Positions 3,100 to 59,009 of a DNA stretch of 64,000 bases are shown piece by piece (position 1 is the stretch's first letter; every line of letters starts with the position of its first letter). The stretch is from assembly GCA_000146045.2 (NCBI GenBank), contig BK006947.3, forward strand, positions 224,001-288,000. The letters are read 5' to 3'. Source of the DNA: TPA_inf: Saccharomyces (taxonomy: Eukaryota). The position numbers were made by a program, and so were the translations under genes. Under the pieces are notes generated by a model, which was given only the letters and a program-made list of their open reading frames with translations, was not told where the DNA came from and did not search any database.

Positions 3100-3369
3100 T
3101 TTTTTTGACGGTTACAACAATTTATGCTTATATTTGACTCTGCGATTAAATCACTTCTTCCTTCTAGAAACTCTGCGCAGGCCTAATTGTTGTTGTTTTG
3201 TTCAGATCTTATTTAATTGTAAAATGTCAAATTTCACTTTTATTCTTTAGGCGGTGACCGTTGCAGCTGCCAACAATAGCGCCTCAAAGGAAAAAAGTAA
3301 AAATATACACACAATAACGTTAGTAGATGAAGAATGGACGACTTCTTATCACGTATAGGAGTGATATAC

Positions 3370-4854
3370 ATGCAGAGGTGGCTACAACTGTGGAAAATGG
3401 ATTTGGTACAAAAAGTGTCTCATGGCGTTTTTGAAGGCTCGTCCGAAGAACCGGCTGCTCTTATGAATCATGATTATATAGTATTAGGGGAAGTATATCC
3501 TGAGCGAGACGAAGAATCTGGCGCTGAACAATGTGAACAAGACTGTCGATATCGCGGTGAAGCGGTTAGTGACGGGTTTTTAAGCTCTCTTTTTGGTAGG
3601 GAAATTTCTTCTTACACAAAGGAATTTCTTTTGGATGTACAATCAAGGGTCAACTTTACATATCGGACAAGATTTGTTCCTATAGCAAGGGCGCCAGATG
3701 GGCCTTCACCTTTAAGTCTAAATTTATTAGTACGTACAAATCCGATCAGTACAATAGAGGACTATATAGCAAATCCTGATTGCTTTAACACTGATATTGG
3801 GTGGGGGTGTATGATAAGGACAGGACAAAGTTTGTTGGGGAATGCCTTACAAATCCTTCATTTGGGCAGAGATTTCAGGGTAAATGGTAACGAAAGTCTG
3901 GAAAGAGAATCAAAATTTGTAAATTGGTTTAATGACACGCCTGAGGCTCCATTTTCGTTACATAACTTTGTTTCTGCAGGTACAGAACTCTCTGATAAAA
4001 GACCAGGTGAATGGTTTGGTCCCGCAGCTACGGCAAGGAGTATACAATCTTTAATATATGGCTTCCCCGAATGTGGCATCGATGATTGTATAGTATCTGT
4101 TTCATCCGGCGATATCTATGAAAATGAAGTTGAAAAAGTATTTGCTGAGAATCCAAATAGTAGAATATTGTTCTTGTTGGGCGTGAAGCTCGGGATTAAT
4201 GCGGTAAATGAGAGCTATAGAGAAAGTATATGTGGTATCTTAAGTTCAACACAGTCAGTAGGCATTGCCGGCGGTAGGCCGTCTTCATCGTTGTATTTTT
4301 TTGGTTATCAAGGAAATGAATTTTTACATTTCGATCCTCATATTCCTCAACCGGCAGTAGAAGATTCATTTGTAGAGTCGTGCCATACCAGTAAATTTGG
4401 TAAATTGCAACTATCGGAAATGGATCCCTCGATGCTCATTGGTATTTTGATTAAGGGCGAAAAAGACTGGCAACAATGGAAGCTAGAAGTTGCAGAATCT
4501 GCTATTATCAATGTTCTTGCTAAGAGAATGGATGACTTTGATGTGAGTTGTAGTATGGATGACGTGGAAAGTGTAAGTTCTAACTCAATGAAGAAAGATG
4601 CAAGCAATAATGAAAATCTCGGAGTACTAGAGGGAGACTACGTAGATATTGGTGCAATATTCCCACACACAACAAATACAGAAGATGTAGACGAATATGA
4701 TTGTTTTCAAGATATTCATTGCAAGAAACAGAAGATTGTTGTTATGGGAAACACACACACTGTTAATGCGAATTTAACAGATTATGAAGTAGAAGGCGTC
4801 CTTGTAGAGAAGGAAACGGTAGGTATTCACAGTCCTATTGATGAAAAATGCTAG
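3370..4854 (+). CDS. ATG4: Autophagy cysteine protease Atg4 (494 aa from the second in-frame ATG; an upstream in-frame ATG at 3334 would give 506 aa)
   Basis: Protein beginning MQRWLQLWKMDLVQ... matches my memory of Atg4. It contains a C54 peptidase-type fold signature. The choice between ATG 3334 and 3370 cannot be made from sequence alone. Confidence 0.85.
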   Translation: MQRWLQLWKMDLVQKVSHGVFEGSSEEPAALMNHDYIVLGEVYPERDEESGAEQCEQDCRYRGEAVSDGFLSSLFGREISSYTKEFLLDVQSRVNFTYRTRFVPIARAPDGPSPLSLNLLVRTNPISTIEDYIANPDCFNTDIGWGCMIRTGQSLLGNALQILHLGRDFRVNGNESLERESKFVNWFNDTPEAPFSLHNFVSAGTELSDKRPGEWFGPAATARSIQSLIYGFPECGIDDCIVSVSSGDIYENEVEKVFAENPNSRILFLLGVKLGINAVNESYRESICGILSSTQSVGIAGGRPSSSLYFFGYQGNEFLHFDPHIPQPAVEDSFVESCHTSKFGKLQLSEMDPSMLIGILIKGEKDWQQWKLEVAESAIINVLAKRMDDFDVSCSMDDVESVSSNSMKKDASNNENLGVLEGDYVDIGAIFPHTTNTEDVDEYDCFQDIHCKKQKIVVMGNTHTVNANLTDYEVEGVLVEKETVGIHSPIDEKC

Positions 4855-5093
4855 TGTAAGGAATTCACTAGTTCATAAGCATATATACTTGTTTTAATAT
4901 ATTCCCTAAAACTGAGGTATCCAGTTCTTTTGTTCTTATTCGTTTGATCATCCTTTACGTATTTTTCGTCTGCGGCAGTGGAAAGAACTTAAAAAACGAA
5001 AGATAATAAAGAAAAAGGCCAGTCGGCACGAATTAAAGACCACCTGTAAGAAGATTAAGACAACGGTGGTATAAACTAGTGTCGAAGTCCAAA

Positions 5094-5714
5094 ATGCCTA
5101 GTCATCGCAATTCAAACTTGAAGTTTTGCACAGTTTGTGCATCAAACAACAATCGTTCAATGGAATCGCATAAAGTCCTGCAAGAAGCAGGCTATAATGT
5201 TAGCTCTTACGGAACAGGTTCAGCTGTGAGACTGCCTGGTCTATCGATAGATAAGCCTAATGTGTACTCATTTGGTACACCCTATAATGATATATATAAT
5301 GATCTTTTATCACAATCAGCAGACCGTTACAAGTCGAACGGTTTATTGCAAATGCTGGATCGTAATAGAAGACTCAAAAAAGCACCTGAAAAATGGCAAG
5401 AAAGTACAAAAGTCTTCGACTTCGTTTTCACTTGTGAAGAGAGATGTTTTGATGCCGTTTGTGAAGATTTGATGAATAGAGGTGGGAAATTAAACAAAAT
5501 AGTGCATGTAATTAATGTTGACATTAAAGATGATGATGAAAATGCTAAAATTGGTAGCAAAGCTATATTGGAATTAGCTGATATGCTCAATGATAAAATA
5601 GAACAATGTGAAAAAGATGACATTCCCTTTGAAGATTGTATAATGGACATTTTAACTGAGTGGCAAAGCTCACATTCTCAACTACCGTCATTATACGCTC
5701 CTTCATATTACTAA
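5094..5714 (+). CDS. SSU72: RNA polymerase II CTD Ser5/Ser7 phosphatase Ssu72 (206 aa)
   Basis: [22 protein letters not shown]... carries the CX5R phosphatase motif ([10 protein letters not shown]). The track ORF begins at a GTG five codons upstream, and the first ATG is at 5094. Confidence 0.9.
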
Positions 5715-6104
5715 ACAAAACGGTCAATTACTGTAGAAAAGCATAAGCATTAAGCGGCCCTCATGAATCCTACATTATCCGTGAAATTTCAATACTTTCA
5801 CAAGTCTTCGATAGCTTCCTAGTTATATTCATTATATAATATTACGTTTCTTGTTGCGGCTCTCTTAAGCACATTATTTGCTTGTTGTCCACATAGCTAT
5901 TTTTTTATCAAGAAGCTTGATATACAACACACTGTATTTTTAGTAAGCTGGACAATGTCTTGTCTCAATGTAGCGTATAACAGGTTTCATTCCAAAACAC
6001 ATCACCAGATATAGGACTGAAATGAAGAAAATAGAAGCATGAAACTTTAAAAGTTTCAGTACTTTAAGAAAGAAATAAATAGAAAAATGTTCCATTTATT
6101 TCTG

Positions 6105-6672
6105 AAAATAAATCAAAAATTATAAGATCCACCCGTTCCTACCAAGACCTTCCAAAATTTTTCCCATAACGGGAACGAGCAAAGTTGAGACTGCTCAAAA
6201 GAGCACATCTTCAAACTACAATCCCGACCAAATAATCTCAACAGCCATACCTTCATCATAAACTTAAGTTCATTCGAATCTGCCGTCAAAAACTAAAATG
6301 GCACGCTAGAGAAAAGTAGTCAAAAAGAATGCCTCTACAAAGCTCTCTTTTGAAAGGCCCCAGCTCCCCTAACACCAATTTGAATTTGGTGTCAAACTTC
6401 TCCAGGCAGAAGAAACAAAGGGCCCCAAAAATCAGTTTAACCCAAAAATCCCCAAAGGAATCAAGGGATTAACCAATGATTGAAACAAGGGAATGGAAAC
6501 GTCAGCAAACACGCCTTCCGCGCCGTATGTGTGTGTGACCAAGGAGTTTGCATCAATGACTTCAATGAACAATTATAGTTCAATGATAAATGCTTAACGT
6601 CCTTCTACTATTGGAAGCGCATGTTTGATCAGTAGGACTTCTTGATCTCCTCTGATATCTTAAGGTAAGTAT
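6105..6672 (-). ncRNA. SNR19: U1 spliceosomal snRNA gene (about 568 nt). The 3' end is approximate, +/- a few nt.
   Basis: The minus-strand transcript starts AUACUUACCUUAAGAUAUCAGAGGAGAUCAAGAAGUCCUACUGAUC..., with nt 3-10 (ACUUACCU) complementary to the 5' splice-site consensus. The region is a GC-rich island with many hairpins in an AT-rich intergenic stretch. The Sm site AUAAUUUUUGA is at 6114-6123, about 10 nt from the end. The length matches the unusually long yeast U1. A TATA box lies about 90 bp upstream. Confidence 0.9.
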
Positions 6673-6761
6673 GAGGATTTTAAAAAAATTCAAGAAAAAA
6701 CTATATTTTAACGCTAAAAGTATGTTTGTAAAATAGTTCTATTAAATGGAACTTCTTCTCT

Positions 6762-6770
6762 CTATTTATA
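6762..6770 (-). promoter_or_regulatory. TATA box (TATAAATAG) for the U1 snRNA gene, about 90-98 bp upstream of its +1
   Basis: Consensus TATAAATAG on the minus strand, at a spacing typical for yeast Pol II snRNA promoters. Confidence 0.5.
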
Positions 6771-7067
6771 CGTCTTGCCAATGGAAAACTCGTCGCCTTA
6801 GAAAAAAAAAAGGTGCAAAGACGGGTAATAATTTCATTGACATTTTCAAGAGCTAGGGAATGAATCAATGAGCCCTATGATGGCAGCGTAGATCACCGTA
6901 TTTAAATTAACATATAATAAGATTTGTTGCCACTTTCAATCTCTAAATGTGTACGTATAGAGTTCCAGGAAGCAAAAAGACCATTATTGCGCGATATGAT
7001 TGCTATTTGCCCTCTGTATACATAGCTTTATAGGATATCGGTCGTACATATAATTCAGTTCAGTTCA

Positions 7068-9695
7068 TTATACGGATATTTTCGACCACTCCCCCAACCT
7101 ATAAGTGTTGGTACCTACATTTCTGATCAGTACATACCTAGTTGGTTGCCGGATGGCCGCATGATGATCTATAAATCCGATTCCCATACCATTTCCACAA
7201 TTTAAGTGGTAGGTGCCGCTGGTAATAAAACCAATCAAATCATGTACCTCTGGAAGTGGAATTTTCAAATCATGATCTTTTCTTCCGTTTGGGCGGTAAA
7301 CCCCTTTTGCCAATTGTAGCCAATGCTCTAAGTCCTTTTCTGGAACTTGATATATTCTTGCATTGTCCTTTGGGTGACCTCGTTCGAGTAGTGTGCAAGA
7401 TACAGCAATGATACAACGTGGGAAGAATGTAAGGGAGAATGAAGAACTATTGACGCTAATGCTATCAGGAGTGCGAAATTGACATTTCCGATTTTTACAC
7501 AATGCAACTGGTATGTTCTCTTCAATCGACAACGACATAGCCTTGGTCTTGGCTTCATAATCTTTGCAAAACTCCAAAACATCATTTACACAGTTGATGT
7601 CTCTTACACCCTGAGCGTTAAATTGCCCGGTCTTCTTACTGTCCATCAGTTCTAAGGTTTTATCATTCCGCTGTAAATAATCAATTCCATTTCTCAGTAT
7701 TTGTAAAAATCTCCAGTCTGAACTGAAAAAATCGCCGATTTCTCCGCTATATGCCGGTAATTTAGTGTTATGGATGTCTTTGATCTTCTCGAAATTAATC
7801 CTTTTTCCCATTGGCTTCCTATCCCACTTCGTCTTGGAGGCCTCCTTTTTATAAAATGAGTTTTCTATATAACCCAATTGAGTGAATGGATAATCATCCG
7901 GAAAATATAATTGCTTATTCTCGTACTGAATTTGCTGGAATTGCCTGAGGCCAATGTGATACATCCTTGGTATCCGGTTCAGTAGATGCCATAACGGTAG
8001 CAGCCAGAACCATGGTAACACAACAATCCAATCCCTGGTCTTGAGCCTTCTTATTATGACTAATGGAATAGAAGGATCGTCACTTTCTTTGAACGGGACT
8101 GTAGTTTTATTGATGCTGTTCGGTGTGGCAGTTAGCAATTTGTAACGTCTCGCAGAAATTTCTTTTAATGTGTTTTGGTTGTTGTATGATTGAGTACGTG
8201 ATTCAGGGTCACATAATTCGTTAAAAACGGCGTTTATTTCGTCTTGAGGATAGTTTTCATGCAGTGATAAAATGTCGTCAGAATTAACAGTCTTCCTCTG
8301 TGAATCATTTAATTTCTTTGGAGCAGCTAGATGACGCGGATCTATGGCTTCAAATGCAAACGTACACCTCTGTGGTAGGGCATTATGATCGGTAATCATT
8401 GAAACCATTTTAAATTGTTCAAACGATTTAGAGTACTCTGTGCTCCTTAAACACGATGCTAATGACTCTAGAGCTTTAGCTCCCTTCAATGTCACGCTTG
8501 CTAATGAATATCGACAATCTTGTACTGTTAGTTTTTCCTTATGTTGCAAAAGAATGTTAAAAACCTGAGTATAAATTGAAGGGTGTAACCTTATAATTGC
8601 AGTATCCTTTTGTACCCAAAATACGTCGCATGGACCCAGTGGCTTAGTAGAATCCTCACCGTTTTCTTCATTGAAACTATAAATTAACCCTTGGAATAAA
8701 ACCTGGCCTTCGCGATATTTCCTTAAGTTTGCTCTTTCAGCTGTTAACTTTCCTATAATGGATTTTAAAAAGTCCCCCTCACTGTCATTGCTTTTGTCTT
8801 TTACAATTATTGTACCAATATAACTTGAATCCATGCATAAGGCCCCATCGGAGCTGCAGGTATCACCGCCCAACCTATGCGTCAATTTAAAGCATTTTTG
8901 AGTAGGTGCCCATACCATTTGATATCCCCATCTTTTCATCATGTGCGACCTTTTAGCATTCCAAATGTGGGTGGGTAGCCAAGCAAAGTGCTTCTGTCTC
9001 TTCGTATATTTGACCCTGCCCTTGGGAATAGGTGCTAATTCATTGACACCAGTGCAATCATAGCTCCCCATACGATTATTAAGTAACTTTATATTTGGAT
9101 TTGCTGTTGATGATTCTTTAATCATTCGCTTTAATGTCTTGATTTTCTGCCTTACGTGGCAGTTAGATGATGTAACCTCTGGTGGCATGCTGAGTTTCAT
9201 AGAAGTAGATTTGCTAGCCAATCGTAGCAGCTTTATGGACATTCTAGCTTTATAAAGTTGCTTTGCATTTAGGCCATGAGCTTTTCTGGAAGAGGCTGAA
9301 GACCCCTTCAACACATCCTGCTGATCACTTTTACGCATTTCCCTCAAAGCTCTATTGCGCATTCTTTTTGGAATTCTACGAACATTATGCGAAGCCGTTC
9401 TACGACGCAATTTTCGAGGCAATGCCTGAAATATTCTCGTTGAGCTGGCTGCTTTGGAATTATGCATGGCCAATTGCAACTGCTTAACCTCGAATTGTCG
9501 AGAACTAATGAATTGGTCCACGTTTAGCTTACTTCCCGATTCACTCAGATCACTCGGTGTCCCAGTTTTTGTTGATGAAGCGGCCACGGCCTCTGCTCTA
9601 ATTGATCTAGCATTTCTTATGCGATTTCGCTTCAGTAATTGATTCTTATTAAGAACTTTCTTTCCACCATTTCCTCTAGACAAACTCCCGCTCAT
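7068..9695 (-). CDS. POP1: RNase P / RNase MRP protein subunit Pop1 (875 aa)
   Basis: 875-aa basic protein (MSGSLSRGNGGKKVLNKNQLLKRNRIRNARS...) matching my memory of Pop1 in both length and sequence. It occupies the single long ORF between the U1 gene and ADE12. Confidence 0.85.
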   Translation of the reverse strand: MSGSLSRGNGGKKVLNKNQLLKRNRIRNARSIRAEAVAASSTKTGTPSDLSESGSKLNVDQFISSRQFEVKQLQLAMHNSKAASSTRIFQALPRKLRRRTASHNVRRIPKRMRNRALREMRKSDQQDVLKGSSASSRKAHGLNAKQLYKARMSIKLLRLASKSTSMKLSMPPEVTSSNCHVRQKIKTLKRMIKESSTANPNIKLLNNRMGSYDCTGVNELAPIPKGRVKYTKRQKHFAWLPTHIWNAKRSHMMKRWGYQMVWAPTQKCFKLTHRLGGDTCSSDGALCMDSSYIGTIIVKDKSNDSEGDFLKSIIGKLTAERANLRKYREGQVLFQGLIYSFNEENGEDSTKPLGPCDVFWVQKDTAIIRLHPSIYTQVFNILLQHKEKLTVQDCRYSLASVTLKGAKALESLASCLRSTEYSKSFEQFKMVSMITDHNALPQRCTFAFEAIDPRHLAAPKKLNDSQRKTVNSDDILSLHENYPQDEINAVFNELCDPESRTQSYNNQNTLKEISARRYKLLTATPNSINKTTVPFKESDDPSIPLVIIRRLKTRDWIVVLPWFWLLPLWHLLNRIPRMYHIGLRQFQQIQYENKQLYFPDDYPFTQLGYIENSFYKKEASKTKWDRKPMGKRINFEKIKDIHNTKLPAYSGEIGDFFSSDWRFLQILRNGIDYLQRNDKTLELMDSKKTGQFNAQGVRDINCVNDVLEFCKDYEAKTKAMSLSIEENIPVALCKNRKCQFRTPDSISVNSSSFSLTFFPRCIIAVSCTLLERGHPKDNARIYQVPEKDLEHWLQLAKGVYRPNGRKDHDLKIPLPEVHDLIGFITSGTYHLNCGNGMGIGFIDHHAAIRQPTRYVLIRNVGTNTYRLGEWSKISV

Positions 9696-9872
9696 TTGTA
9701 ATTATAATGAGGTCAATTCTCACCTTTCTTGCCAAATGTTCAAGTGGCAGGCTGCTCAATAAGTATCCCCGTTCTTCAAAGACATGCCACCGTTCCGAGA
9801 ATCTCATCGAATTCAGATCTGCTTTCTTCTAATGCGAATTTCACTGAAAAGTTTTCCCACAGTGTTACCCTC

Positions 9873-9880
9873 TTACCCGG
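9873..9880 (+). promoter_or_regulatory. Reb1-type site TTACCCGG in the POP1–ADE12 divergent promoter
   Basis: Exact TTACCCGG(G) match. Reb1 sites are common in yeast divergent promoters. Confidence 0.35.
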
Positions 9881-9889
9881 GTGCAATGT

Positions 9890-9895
9890 CACGTG
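9890..9895 (+). promoter_or_regulatory. CACGTG E-box (Cbf1/Pho4-type) in the POP1–ADE12 intergenic region
   Basis: Exact CACGTG palindrome. Confidence 0.25.
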
Positions 9896-10189
9896 CACAT
9901 CACATATGAAAAAATGACCAGCAAAGAAGTCAATCTACCTTCCTTATGGCCGGTAGAGTCAATAGTAATTTACTTTGCAACCAATTAATAAATCTGTAAA
10001 CTTAAAGGAATCAGCAATTACCGCAACCCCAGAGAATCGGATGGTGAGATTAGTCCCATTCAATTCGCTCTCGTGACCAAATCGTCGGGAAAACATGTCC
10101 CACTTACCTGTTCCTGTGAATCCAGATACGGAAAAAAATTGTATTTAAATAATCTCGATTTTACATTTACTGATCGCGATCCTTTTCAT

Positions 10190-10196
10190 TGAGTCA
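10190..10196 (+). promoter_or_regulatory. TGAGTCA (Gcn4/Bas1-type TGACTC element) about 220 bp upstream of ADE12
   Basis: Exact TGAGTCA. Purine-pathway ADE genes are known to be regulated through TGACTC elements bound by Bas1/Bas2 and Gcn4. Confidence 0.4.
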
Positions 10197-10412
10197 CAGA
10201 TTAACAAAGTAAATAATAATAAGTAAACATTATTTCTAAAAAAGTAATTTCTTTTTCTTACTAGTCTTTTCTTTTTTGACTTTCTCTTTATTTCTTAACT
10301 TGCCTTATAAAAGAAACGATTGTAGAAGCTTACCTCGACCGAGTAAATATTAAGCTTTTCGTTGGATAAGGTAGGGGAAATCGTAACATTACTAAATTTA
10401 AAGCATATCAGA

Positions 10413-30417: not shown

Positions 30418-31017
30418 ATGTCTGCAAACGAATTCTACTCAAGTGGCCAACAAGGTCAATATAACCAGCAAAACAACCAAGAAAGAACTGGTGCTCCAAA
30501 CAACGGTCAATATGGTGCCGACAATGGTAACCCCAACGGTGAACGTGGTTTATTTTCCACTATTGTAGGTGGCAGTGCCGGTGCGTACGCTGGATCTAAG
30601 GTGTCGAACAACCATTCTAAGTTGAGTGGTGTGCTGGGCGCCATAGGTGGTGCATTCCTTGCCAACAAGATATCTGATGAGCGTAAAGAGCATAAGCAAC
30701 AAGAGCAATACGGCAACTCAAACTTCGGAGGTGCTCCTCAAGGTGGACACAACAACCATCACCGTCAGGACAATAACAACAATAACGGTGGATTTGGCGG
30801 TCCAGGCGGCCCTGGCGGTCAAGGTTTCGGAAGACAAGGCCCACAAGGATTTGGAGGTCCTGGTCCACAAGAGTTTGGTGGTCCAGGTGGCCAAGGATTC
30901 GGTGGTCCAAATCCTCAAGAATTCGGCGGGCCAGGTGGCCAAGGATTCGGTGGTCCAAACCCTCAGGAATTCGGGGGCCAAGGTCGTCAAGGATTCAATG
31001 GCGGTTCACGTTGGTGA
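30418..31017 (+). CDS. Low-complexity G/Q/N-rich protein YNL208W (199 aa)
   Basis: MSANEFYSSGQQGQYNQQNNQERTGAPNNGQYG... has a central hydrophobic GVLGAIGGAFLA segment and C-terminal tandem GGPGGQGFGGPNPQEF units. The track ORF starts at a GTG 3 codons upstream. Confidence 0.75.
   Translation: MSANEFYSSGQQGQYNQQNNQERTGAPNNGQYGADNGNPNGERGLFSTIVGGSAGAYAGSKVSNNHSKLSGVLGAIGGAFLANKISDERKEHKQQEQYGNSNFGGAPQGGHNNHHRQDNNNNNGGFGGPGGPGGQGFGRQGPQGFGGPGPQEFGGPGGQGFGGPNPQEFGGPGGQGFGGPNPQEFGGQGRQGFNGGSRW
30877..30972 (+). repeat. Two near-identical 48-bp tandem units encoding GGPGGQGFGGPNPQEF, preceded by degenerate copies from about 30790
   Basis: Direct tandem duplication visible at the nucleotide level (ggtggccaaggattcggtggtccaaa[t/c]cctca[a/g]gaattc). 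Confidence 0.8.
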
Positions 31018-58394: not shown

Positions 58395-59009
58395 ATGAAG
58401 TTCTCTTCTGTTACTGCTATTACTCTAGCCACCGTTGCCACCGTTGCCACTGCTAAGAAGGGTGAACATGATTTCACTACCACTTTAACTTTGTCATCGG
58501 ACGGTAGTTTAACTACTACCACCTCTACTCATACCACTCACAAGTATGGTAAGTTCAACAAGACTTCCAAGTCCAAGACCCCAAACCACACTGGTACTCA
58601 CAAGTACGGTAAGTTCAACAAGACCTCCAAGTCTAAGACCCCAAACCATACCGGTACTCACAAGTATGGTAAGTTCAACAAGACTTCCAAGTCCAAGACT
58701 CCAAACCATACCGGTACTCACAAGTACGGTAAGTTCAACAAGACCTCCAAATCCAAGACTCCAAACCACACTGGTACTCACAAGTACGGTAAGTTCAACA
58801 AGACCTCCAAGTCTAAGACCCCAAACCATACCGGTACTCACAAGTATGGTAAGTTCAACAAAACCAAACATGACACTACCACTTATGGTCCTGGTGAAAA
58901 GGCCCGTAAGAACAATGCCGCCCCTGGTCCATCTAATTTCAACTCCATAAAATTGTTTGGTGTTACCGCTGGTAGTGCTGCCGTAGCCGGTGCCTTATTA
59001 CTATTATAA
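58395..59009 (+). CDS. Secreted, probably GPI-anchored repeat-containing hydrophilic cell-wall protein YNL190W (204 aa)
   Basis: N-terminal signal peptide (MKFSSVTAITLATVATVATA), 5.5 tandem 20-aa repeats, and a C-terminal hydrophobic GPI-type tail (GSAAVAGALLLL). Confidence 0.8.
   Translation: MKFSSVTAITLATVATVATAKKGEHDFTTTLTLSSDGSLTTTTSTHTTHKYGKFNKTSKSKTPNHTGTHKYGKFNKTSKSKTPNHTGTHKYGKFNKTSKSKTPNHTGTHKYGKFNKTSKSKTPNHTGTHKYGKFNKTSKSKTPNHTGTHKYGKFNKTKHDTTTYGPGEKARKNNAAPGPSNFNSIKLFGVTAGSAAVAGALLLL
58538..58870 (+). repeat. Tandem array of 60-bp units, 5 full copies plus a partial one, encoding HKYGKFNKTSKSKTPNHTGT
   Basis: Copies are near-identical at the nucleotide level and differ only at a few synonymous third positions (tat/tac, act/acc, tcc/tct). 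Confidence 0.9.

What the first reader, a model, noticed from the sequence alone, without database searches (positions are those of the whole stretch)
6105..6672. Unannotated 568-nt U1 snRNA gene forms a GC-rich structured island between SSU72 and POP1
The 1.35-kb SSU72–POP1 spacer contains no ORF. Its minus strand encodes an RNA starting AUACUUACCUUAAGAUAUCAGAGG..., the U1 5' splice-site recognition sequence. It has dense hairpins (for example GCUCuuuuGAGC, ACACCAAAUUcaAAUUGGUGU) and a terminal Sm site AUAAUUUUUGA, and a TATAAATAG box lies about 90 bp upstream. This is the most important feature the ORF track cannot show. Its neighbours are thematically related, Ssu72 acting in snRNA 3'-end formation and Pop1 being an RNase P/MRP subunit, but that is probably coincidence.
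Basis: partly seen in the sequence, partly recalled or inferred. Interest (0 to 1): 0.6.

Follow-up and report, generated by a model that had tools for sequence, protein, structure and literature searches.

The report
Yeast U1 snRNA gene SNR19

Summary
Window 6105..6672 (minus strand) is the Saccharomyces cerevisiae U1 snRNA gene SNR19 (systematic name YNCN0005C). Rfam U1_yeast (RF00488) matches exactly these coordinates, full length, at 611.7 bits against a threshold of 80. All 78 consensus base pairs form. Across ten orthologues, 38 of the 78 pairs carry compensatory changes. The flanking genes are SSU72 and POP1. A published HindIII site at +755 and the published Rnt1 substrate sequence both match the window exactly.

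Two qualifiers in the title need correcting. The gene is not GC-rich in absolute terms: its GC is 0.398 against a window mean of 0.381. It stands out only against its AT-rich intergenic flanks (0.325). It is "unannotated" only for an ORF track, because it is a named gene.

The first is the known RNase III (Rnt1) processing hairpin at 5986..6026. The second is a conserved TTACCCG (Reb1-type) motif, T-tract and TATA promoter layout. The third is a POP1-to-U1 adjacency conserved across Saccharomycetaceae, whereas the SSU72 adjacency is seen only in Saccharomyces and K. africana.

Verdict: already known, low interest.

The parts
6105..6672 (-). SNR19, the 568-nt U1 spliceosomal snRNA gene (mature RNA; +1 = 6672, 3' end = 6105)
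   Evidence: Rfam RF00488 at 611.7 bits, full length. All 78 consensus pairs are canonical. Covariation is seen across 10 orthologues. The published length of 568 nt and the HindIII site at +755 agree.
6664..6670 (-). 5' splice-site recognition sequence ACUUACC (RNA nt 3-9), single-stranded
   Evidence: RNA nt 1-15 are invariant in all 10 aligned U1 sequences. The 3ACUUAC8 motif is described in PMC3753624.
6628..6656 (-). Stem-loop 1 (RNA 17-45): 9-bp stem with a conserved 10-nt loop
   Evidence: Rfam consensus structure. 5 of the 9 pairs carry compensatory changes, and 98.9% of cells are paired. Loop positions are invariant or nearly invariant.
6506..6627 (-). Stem-loop 2 (RNA 46-167): long stem with a variable distal part
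   Evidence: Rfam consensus. 9 of the 14 basal pairs carry compensatory changes.
6365..6492 (-). Stem-loop 3 core domain (RNA 181-308).
   Evidence: Rfam consensus. Helices 6-11 are 95-100% paired. The RNA 281-301 hairpin has 4 of 7 compensatory pairs.
6140..6364 (-). Yeast-specific expansion (RNA ~309-533), left unpaired in the Rfam consensus.
   Evidence: RNAalifold on 6 Saccharomyces sequences predicts a long imperfect rod with compensatory changes, and the GCUC/GAGC hairpin is kept in all six. SNR19 with nt 192-507 deleted is used as a constitutively expressed U1 construct in PMC3675052.
6113..6121 (-). Sm-protein binding site AAUUUUUGA (RNA 552-560)
   Evidence: It is invariant in all 10 U1 sequences. 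PMC3675052 gives the same sequence as the natural Sm site and places it at positions 553-559.
6762..6770 (-). TATA box TATAAATAG, at -98 to -90 from the start
   Evidence: GTATAAATA is invariant in 5 Saccharomyces species. A TATAAA lies at -61 to -101 in all 9 species examined.
6802..6829 (-). Upstream promoter element: ATTACCCG (6829..6822, -157 to -150), which contains the Reb1-type core TTACCCG, followed by a T10 tract (6811..6802)
   Evidence: ATTACCCG is invariant in 5 Saccharomyces species. TTACCCG lies in the same orientation 50-75 bp upstream of the TATA box in 8 of 9 species. The assignment to Reb1 rests on the known Reb1 consensus, not on a test here.
5986..6026 (-). RNase III (Rnt1) processing hairpin in the 3' extension of pre-U1. 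It starts 79 nt past the mature 3' end, and its UGGU tetraloop is at 6007..6004. Published cleavage positions map to about 6022 and 5986.
   Evidence: Predicted by the folds, inside a near-invariant block. The published 50-nt snR19 Rnt1 substrate matches window 5981..6030 exactly. The published tetraloop is UGGU, and the published cleavage positions are chrXIV 229986 and 230022.
6035..6103 (-). Two further hairpins in the 3' extension: A at 6103..6071 (14-bp A/U-rich stem) and B at 6064..6035
   Evidence: The fold of 5960..6104 has z = -4.60. Hairpin A is partly supported by the alignment fold. Their function was not established.
5094..5714 (+). SSU72 coding sequence (206 aa), convergent with SNR19 (context)
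   Evidence: Pfam PF04722, E = 1.7e-83. The ATG is at codon 6 of the mechanical ORF. A 206-aa gene is called in the matching assemblies.
7068..9695 (-). POP1 coding sequence (875 aa), upstream of SNR19 and in tandem with it (context)
   Evidence: Pfam POP1_N, POPLD and POP1_C. The protein is found unchanged in NCBI assemblies.

Best explanation
The feature is SNR19, the gene for the 568-nt U1 small nuclear RNA of Saccharomyces cerevisiae. It is the only copy in this window and lies on chromosome XIV, about 230.1-230.7 kb.

How it works:
- Transcription. RNA polymerase II starts at window 6672 on the minus strand. The promoter is a conserved TATA box at -98, with a T-tract and a TTACCCG (Reb1-type) element at about -150 upstream. 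This step is inferred from conserved motifs and from the literature.
- 3'-end formation. The primary transcript runs past the mature 3' end. The RNase III enzyme Rnt1 cuts it in a UGGU-capped hairpin 79-119 nt downstream (window 5986..6026). The exosome then trims back until the Sm ring, bound at AAUUUUUGA (nt 552-560), stops it at 6105. The sequence match is shown here; the enzymology comes from the literature.
- Function. The RNA folds into stem-loops 1-3 and two long-range helices, plus a yeast-specific expansion. It assembles into U1 snRNP. Its single-stranded 5' ACUUAC (nt 3-8) base-pairs with the 5' splice site of pre-mRNA introns to start spliceosome assembly. This is established knowledge, and the sequence features are verified here.
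For: Identity of the RNA:
- Rfam RF00488 matches full length at 611.7 bits against a threshold of 80, E = 1.7e-144, at exactly 6105..6672 on the minus strand.
- It is the only hit in the spacer even at E <= 1, and the only Rfam gathering-score hit in the 64 kb.
- All 78 consensus pairs are canonical.

Conservation and structure:
- Full-length RF00488 hits (197-606 bits) lie downstream of POP1 in a second S. cerevisiae strain and in 8 other Saccharomycetaceae species.
- On the 10-sequence alignment, 96.2% of cells are paired, against 41-51% when partners are slid. 38 of 78 pairs have changes on both sides, and 0 of 500 shuffles reach that value.
- The 5' 15 nt and the Sm site are invariant.
- The minimum free energy has z = -3.18.

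Organism and locus:
- The Pop1 protein is identical to that in NCBI yeast assemblies and 87% identical to S. paradoxus Pop1.
- The gene order is Atg4-like, Ssu72, U1, Pop1, Ade12-like.

Literature anchors:
- Yeast U1 is 568 nt and is encoded by SNR19 (PMC5648754; PMC3753624).
- The HindIII site at +755 is reproduced exactly.
- The Sm site AAUUUUUGA is at 553-559 (PMC3675052).
- The published Rnt1 substrate sequence matches 5981..6030 exactly.
- The published cleavage sites chrXIV 229986 and 230022 map to opposite arms of the hairpin. The upper cut (6022) pairs with 5990, and the lower cluster (5984-5987) lies a few nt 3' of that, which fits a staggered RNase III cut.
Against: Nothing substantive. 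No transcript data were examined directly, so the 5' and 3' ends rest on the covariance model, on conservation and on published coordinates. The window-to-chromosome offset of 224000 is inferred: it comes from the centring of a published 90-nt interval on the tetraloop and from my memory of the reference coordinates. One published table gives the gene as 230106-230673, which is one base off that offset.
Confidence: 0.99

Rival explanations
1. It is a U1-like pseudogene or non-functional duplicate, and the working U1 gene lies elsewhere.
For: None found. Only 64 kb of the genome was examined, so a second copy elsewhere cannot be excluded from the sequence alone.
Against: The match is full length, and all 78 consensus pairs are intact. 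The locus is syntenic with full-length U1 genes in 8 other species and shows compensatory rather than degenerative substitutions. The promoter and the Rnt1 processing hairpin are conserved. Published tables and constructs name this locus as SNR19. No second copy is in the window.
Confidence: 0.005
2. The spacer encodes one or more small proteins (mechanical ORFs of 40-58 aa overlap the region), and the RNA structure is incidental.
For: the ORF listing reports short ORFs inside 6105..6672, for example 6113..6289 (minus strand, 58 aa, TTG start) and 6329..6472 (plus strand, 47 aa).
Against: ORFs of this size are expected by chance. The longest ATG-initiated ORF in the whole spacer is 51 aa and lies outside the RNA. 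Substitutions among species preserve base pairs, with 38 compensatory pairs, and species differ by insertions and deletions of various lengths in the variable regions. A covariance-model E-value of 1e-144 explains the conservation.
Confidence: 0.005
3. The clustering of SSU72, SNR19 and POP1 is a functional RNA-processing gene cluster, not a coincidence.
For: POP1 followed by U1 in tandem is conserved in 9 of 10 loci spanning Saccharomyces, Kazachstania, Zygosaccharomyces, Lachancea and Kluyveromyces.
Against: SSU72 is the neighbour only in Saccharomyces and K. africana. In Z. rouxii, L. thermotolerans and K. lactis the gene on that side is an unrelated 407-429 aa protein. In Nakaseomyces bracarensis, U1 is not next to POP1. 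A glycosyltransferase (PF03901) and/or an adenylosuccinate synthetase also lie upstream of POP1 in every locus examined, so plain block synteny is enough to explain the adjacency. No shared regulatory element was found.
Confidence: 0.05

Closest known systems
Saccharomyces cerevisiae SNR19 (U1 snRNA; SGD systematic name YNCN0005C)
   Same: Everything tested agrees: a 568-nt length, the minus strand between SSU72 and POP1, the 5' AUACUUACCU, the Sm site AAUUUUUGA, a HindIII site at +755, and a downstream Rnt1 hairpin identical to the published substrate.
   Different: Nothing detected. Another S. cerevisiae strain (L002) differs from the window at 2 of 568 positions, RNA nt 74 and 425. So the window is one allele of the same gene.
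U1 snRNAs of other Saccharomycetaceae (Rfam RF00488 members)
   Same: They share the same 5' 15 nt, the stem-loop 1 loop, the stem-loop 3 core, both long-range helices and the Sm site. They also share the position downstream of POP1 and the TTACCCG-then-TATA promoter layout.
   Different: Lengths range from 485 to 577 nt, because the distal part of stem-loop 2 and the yeast-specific expansion (RNA ~309-533) vary. Scores fall from 606 to 197 bits with phylogenetic distance.
Metazoan U1 snRNA (human U1, 164 nt; Rfam RF00003, same clan CL00005)
   Same: The function and core design are the same: a 5' ACUUACC that pairs with the 5' splice site, stem-loop 1 for the U1-70K/Snp1 protein, and an Sm site near the 3' end (PMC5648754; the clan is shown).
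   Different: The yeast RNA is 3.5 times larger (568 versus 164 nt), with extra stem-loops that scaffold yeast-specific stable subunits. From general knowledge, human 3'-end formation uses Integrator and the 3' box, whereas yeast uses Rnt1, the Nrd1-Nab3-Sen1 (NNS) termination pathway and the exosome.

Membership tests
Yeast U1 spliceosomal snRNA (Rfam RF00488) / SNR19 | Scores above the curated gathering threshold of the family covariance model over its full length | tested here: met
   611.7 bits against 80, model positions 1-567 of 567, E = 1.7e-144.
Yeast U1 spliceosomal snRNA (Rfam RF00488) / SNR19 | Single-stranded 5' ACUUAC(C), complementary to the 5' splice site, at nt 3-8(9) | tested here: met
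   ACUUACC is at RNA 3-9 and unpaired in the consensus. It is invariant in 10 sequences.
Yeast U1 spliceosomal snRNA (Rfam RF00488) / SNR19 | Sm-binding site (A)AUUUUUG(A) near the 3' end | tested here: met
   AAUUUUUGA is at RNA 552-560 and invariant. It is the same sequence as the published natural Sm site.
Yeast U1 spliceosomal snRNA (Rfam RF00488) / SNR19 | Conserved secondary structure (stem-loops 1-3 and long-range helices) maintained by compensatory substitutions | tested here: met
   78 of 78 pairs are canonical in the window. 96.2% of cells are paired, against 41-51% in slid controls. 38 pairs have changes on both sides, and 0 of 500 shuffles reach that.
Yeast U1 spliceosomal snRNA (Rfam RF00488) / SNR19 | Orthologous (syntenic) position relative to U1 genes of related species | tested here: met
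   U1 lies downstream of POP1 in 9 of 10 loci.
Yeast U1 spliceosomal snRNA (Rfam RF00488) / SNR19 | RNA polymerase II snRNA-type expression signals: a TATA-box promoter, and 3' extension processing by Rnt1 at an A/UGNN-capped hairpin | tested here: met
   The TATA box is conserved at -98. The downstream hairpin has a UGGU tetraloop and is identical to the published Rnt1 substrate. Published cleavage sites map onto both of its arms.
Yeast U1 spliceosomal snRNA (Rfam RF00488) / SNR19 | Abundant trimethylguanosine-capped transcript of 568 nt incorporated into U1 snRNP; essential for splicing | not testable with these tools
   Literature only: PMC3753624 and PMC5648754 describe the TMG-capped 568-nt RNA and its snRNP structure.

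The most novel reading that the evidence does not exclude
The tandem arrangement of POP1 followed by SNR19, kept in genera on both sides of the whole-genome duplication, always has a TTACCCG (Reb1-type) site between the two genes. This could reflect a selected insulating arrangement rather than neutral synteny: a Reb1 roadblock would stop POP1 read-through from interfering with the very active U1 promoter.
Probability: 0.1. Interest if true: 0.2.

Novelty: already known. Interest (0 to 1): 0.04.

Why it matters
It matters mainly as a calibration point. A reader working from raw sequence alone recovered the exact boundaries of a non-coding RNA gene that an ORF track cannot show, and every named check confirmed it. 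Biologically, SNR19/U1 has been characterised since the late 1980s, including by mutagenesis, 3'-end processing studies and cryo-EM, so nothing new follows from finding it here.

Tried and rejected
- Seipelt et al. 1999 (PMC148219), the primary paper on U1 cleavage by Rnt1, is not held in the library. I used two later papers' supplements that cite it and reproduce the substrate and cleavage sites.
- A full-text search for the reference coordinates 230672 and 230105, meant to anchor the chromosome offset, returned only unrelated papers. I inferred the offset instead from a published 90-nt interval centred on the tetraloop.
- A search for direct evidence of Reb1 at the SNR19 promoter found nothing. 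The two papers I opened mention only SNR190, or Reb1 in another context. The Reb1 assignment therefore remains a motif-based inference.
- One term-syntax error and one term-length error returned nothing.
- I first considered hairpins A and B, just past the mature 3' end, as the Rnt1 site. I rejected them because neither has an A/UGNN tetraloop, and the published substrate is hairpin C.
- 'GC-rich island' was tested and rejected in the absolute sense.
- The ARAGORN scan found no tRNA or tmRNA gene in the window. No second U1-like copy is present: the only other match to the 5' 16-mer has 3 mismatches and is at chance level.
- Nrd1 and Nab3 motifs (GUAA, GUAG, UCUUG) occur downstream of the Rnt1 hairpin. 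They are too short and too few to test statistically, so I make no claim about the NNS terminator position.

Full report
**1. The observation**

The minus strand of window 6105..6672 reads AUACUUACCUUAAGAUAUCAGAGG... and ends ...CUUAUAAUUUUUGAUUUAUUUU. A scan of all 64 kb against Rfam 15 gives one match above a gathering score. It is RF00488 (U1_yeast) at 6105..6672 on the minus strand, model positions 1-567 of 567, at 611.7 bits against a threshold of 80, E = 1.7e-144. A permissive scan of 5600..7200 (E <= 1) adds nothing.

- ACUUACC at RNA nt 3-9.
- The Sm-site string AUAAUUUUUGA at nt 550-560.
- The hairpin GCUCuuuuGAGC at nt 469-480.
- The hairpin ACACCAAAUUcaAAUUGGUGU at nt 281-301.
- TATAAATAG at window 6770..6762, which is -98 to -90.

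The SSU72-POP1 spacer is 5715..7067 (1353 bp). Its longest ATG-initiated ORF is 51 aa. The flanking ORFs match Pfam Ssu72 (E = 1.7e-83) and the three Pop1 domains POP1_N, POPLD and POP1_C. The next genes out are a C54 peptidase and an adenylosuccinate synthetase.

**2. Two qualifiers that do not hold as written**

"GC-rich": the gene's GC is 0.398, the window mean is 0.381 (sd 0.035 for 568-nt windows), and 32% of such windows are at least as GC-rich. The POP1 coding sequence is 0.400. The RNA stands out only against the rest of its own spacer, at 0.325.

"Unannotated": this is true only for an ORF track. Published tables list the locus as SNR19 (U1), YNCN0005C, on chrXIV minus.

**3. Organism and locus**

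The 875-aa Pop1 protein occurs unchanged in several NCBI assemblies on contigs of 750-765 kb. Its nearest named relative is S. paradoxus Pop1 at 87% identity. The window is therefore S. cerevisiae.

Three literature anchors tie the coordinates to SNR19.
- PMC3753624 describes an SNR19 clone ending at a HindIII site at +755, made up of the 568-nt RNA plus 187 nt downstream. With +1 at 6672, AAGCTT starts at window 5918, which is +755 exactly.
- PMC3675052 gives the natural Sm site as AAUUUUUGA at positions 553-559. The window has it at 552-560.
- PMC4334505 lists snR19 as 568 nt on the minus strand. It also gives the known Rnt1 substrate (citing Seipelt 1999) as a 50-nt sequence, which matches window 5981..6030 exactly and only once.

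**4. Related sequences**

Using Pop1 orthologues, I fetched syntenic loci from nine other species: S. paradoxus, S. kudriavzevii, S. arboricola, S. eubayanus, Kazachstania africana, Zygosaccharomyces rouxii, Nakaseomyces bracarensis, Lachancea thermotolerans and Kluyveromyces lactis. Of the ten loci scanned, which also include a second S. cerevisiae strain, nine have a full-length RF00488 hit just downstream of POP1, at 197-606 bits. N. bracarensis does not, and an ALAD (HEM2-like) gene sits there instead.

On the 10-sequence alignment, the Rfam consensus structure behaves as follows:
- All 78 pairs are canonical in the window.
- 96.2% of cells are paired, against 41-51% when the 3' partners are slid by 1-3 columns.
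- 38 of 78 pairs have changes on both sides, and 0 of 500 shuffles reach that value.

The first 15 nt, the stem-loop 1 loop, the stem-loop 3 core and the Sm site are invariant or nearly so. Among six Saccharomyces sequences, the yeast-specific expansion (RNA ~309-533, unpaired in the Rfam consensus) folds as a long imperfect rod with further compensatory changes. The single-sequence fold is more stable than shuffles (z = -3.18).

**5. Surroundings: promoter**

Upstream, GTATAAATA (6771..6763) is invariant in five Saccharomyces species. So is ATTACCCG (6829..6822, -157 to -150), which is followed by a T10 tract. TTACCCG occurs in the same orientation 50-75 bp upstream of the TATA box in 8 of the 9 species examined, including ones whose promoters cannot be aligned. 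K. africana lacks an exact copy.

TTACCCG is the core consensus of the general regulatory factor Reb1. That is established knowledge and was not tested here, and I found no paper reporting Reb1 at SNR19. The layout of factor site, T-tract and TATA box is the usual yeast design for a nucleosome-free, highly active promoter.

**6. Surroundings: 3' end**

The 145 nt after the mature end fold into three hairpins (z = -4.60). The third, at 5986..6026, lies in a nearly invariant block. It has a 16-bp interrupted stem capped by UGGU in S. cerevisiae and UGGC in the other species. It is the published Rnt1 substrate.

Two independent data sets place the cleavage at chrXIV 229986 and 230022: Gagnon et al. 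2015, and the 2026 PARE (5'-end sequencing) study, whose in-vitro-validated rows fall on the same two positions. A published 90-nt interval (229961-230050) is centred on the tetraloop if the window offset is 224000. That value also agrees with my memory of the reference coordinates of SSU72 and POP1.

With that offset the cuts fall at window 6022 and 5986-5987, about 15 nt on the 5' side and 17-18 nt on the 3' side of the tetraloop and on opposite arms of the hairpin. Position 6022 pairs with 5990, so the lower cut is displaced a few nt to the 3' side, which fits a staggered RNase III cut. One table gives the gene as 230106-230673, one base off this offset. I therefore treat the mapped positions as good to within 1 nt.

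**7. Mechanism**

Shown here:
- The sequence is a full-length, structurally intact, syntenic U1 gene with conserved promoter motifs.
- The downstream hairpin is identical to the published Rnt1 substrate.

Taken from the literature:
- The RNA is TMG-capped, 568 nt long and part of U1 snRNP (PMC3753624 and PMC5648754).
- Pre-U1 is cut by Rnt1 and then trimmed by the exosome in an Sm-site-dependent way (PMC3675052 and PMC13183374).
- nt 3-8 pair with the 5' splice site.

Inferred:
- Reb1 binding at -150.
- An NNS terminator further downstream. Nrd1 and Nab3 motifs are present, but too few to test.

**8. Neighbourhood**

SSU72 is the convergent neighbour only in Saccharomyces and K. africana. In Z. 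rouxii, L. thermotolerans and K. lactis the gene on that side is an unrelated 407-429 aa protein. The POP1-then-U1 tandem is much older. It sits beside other conserved neighbours: a glycosyltransferase (PF03901) and/or an adenylosuccinate synthetase lie upstream of POP1 in every locus examined. Ordinary synteny is therefore enough to explain it.

**9. Verdict**

The feature is S. cerevisiae SNR19, and it is already known in detail. Interest is low.

Noticed in passing
window 6802..6829 (-): ATTACCCG (the Reb1-type core TTACCCG) plus a T10 tract lies about 50 bp upstream of the U1 TATA box. The motif is invariant in 5 Saccharomyces species. It is found in the same orientation and relative position upstream of U1 in 8 of 9 Saccharomycetaceae species. 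I found no paper reporting Reb1 at SNR19.
   Followed up: partly
window 5986..6026 (-): A near-invariant hairpin capped by UGGU lies 79 nt past the U1 3' end. It turned out to be the published Rnt1 (RNase III) processing site of pre-U1. Published cleavage sites map to both of its arms.
   Followed up: yes
window 6035..6103 (-): Two more stable hairpins sit directly after the mature U1 3' end: a 14-bp A/U-rich stem at 6103..6071 and a second hairpin at 6064..6035. By eye, both show some compensatory differences between Saccharomyces species in the downstream alignment. Their role is unknown; they might pause the exosome or aid termination.
   Followed up: partly
L007-L015 (loci syntenic with window 5000..12000): POP1 followed in tandem by U1 is conserved in Saccharomyces, Kazachstania, Zygosaccharomyces, Lachancea and Kluyveromyces, but is broken in Nakaseomyces bracarensis, where an ALAD gene follows POP1. 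SSU72 is the other neighbour only in Saccharomyces and K. africana.
   Followed up: yes
window 6599 and 6248 (RNA nt 74 and 425) compared with L002: Another S. cerevisiae strain differs from the window's U1 at two positions. C74U turns a consensus C-G pair into U-G, and U is also the state in S. paradoxus, S. kudriavzevii and S. eubayanus. A425G lies in the variable expansion.
   Followed up: partly
window 3334..4854 (+) and L001-L006: The Atg4-like C54 peptidase ORF is 506 aa from its first ATG in the window. It is called as 494 aa in most of the matching assemblies and 506 aa in the others, so start-codon annotation is inconsistent. In one Logan assembly SSU72 is called as 184 aa rather than 206 aa.
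   Followed up: no
window 58536..58865: A 60-nt unit is repeated 5.5 times at 92% identity. It also scores as a 180-nt period at 97%. The unit length is a multiple of 3 (20 codons), and no ORF of 250 aa or more overlaps it.
   Followed up: no
window 30837..30996: A degenerate 24/48-nt tandem repeat, 67-84% matches. The unit length is a multiple of 3, so it may be coding.
   Followed up: no
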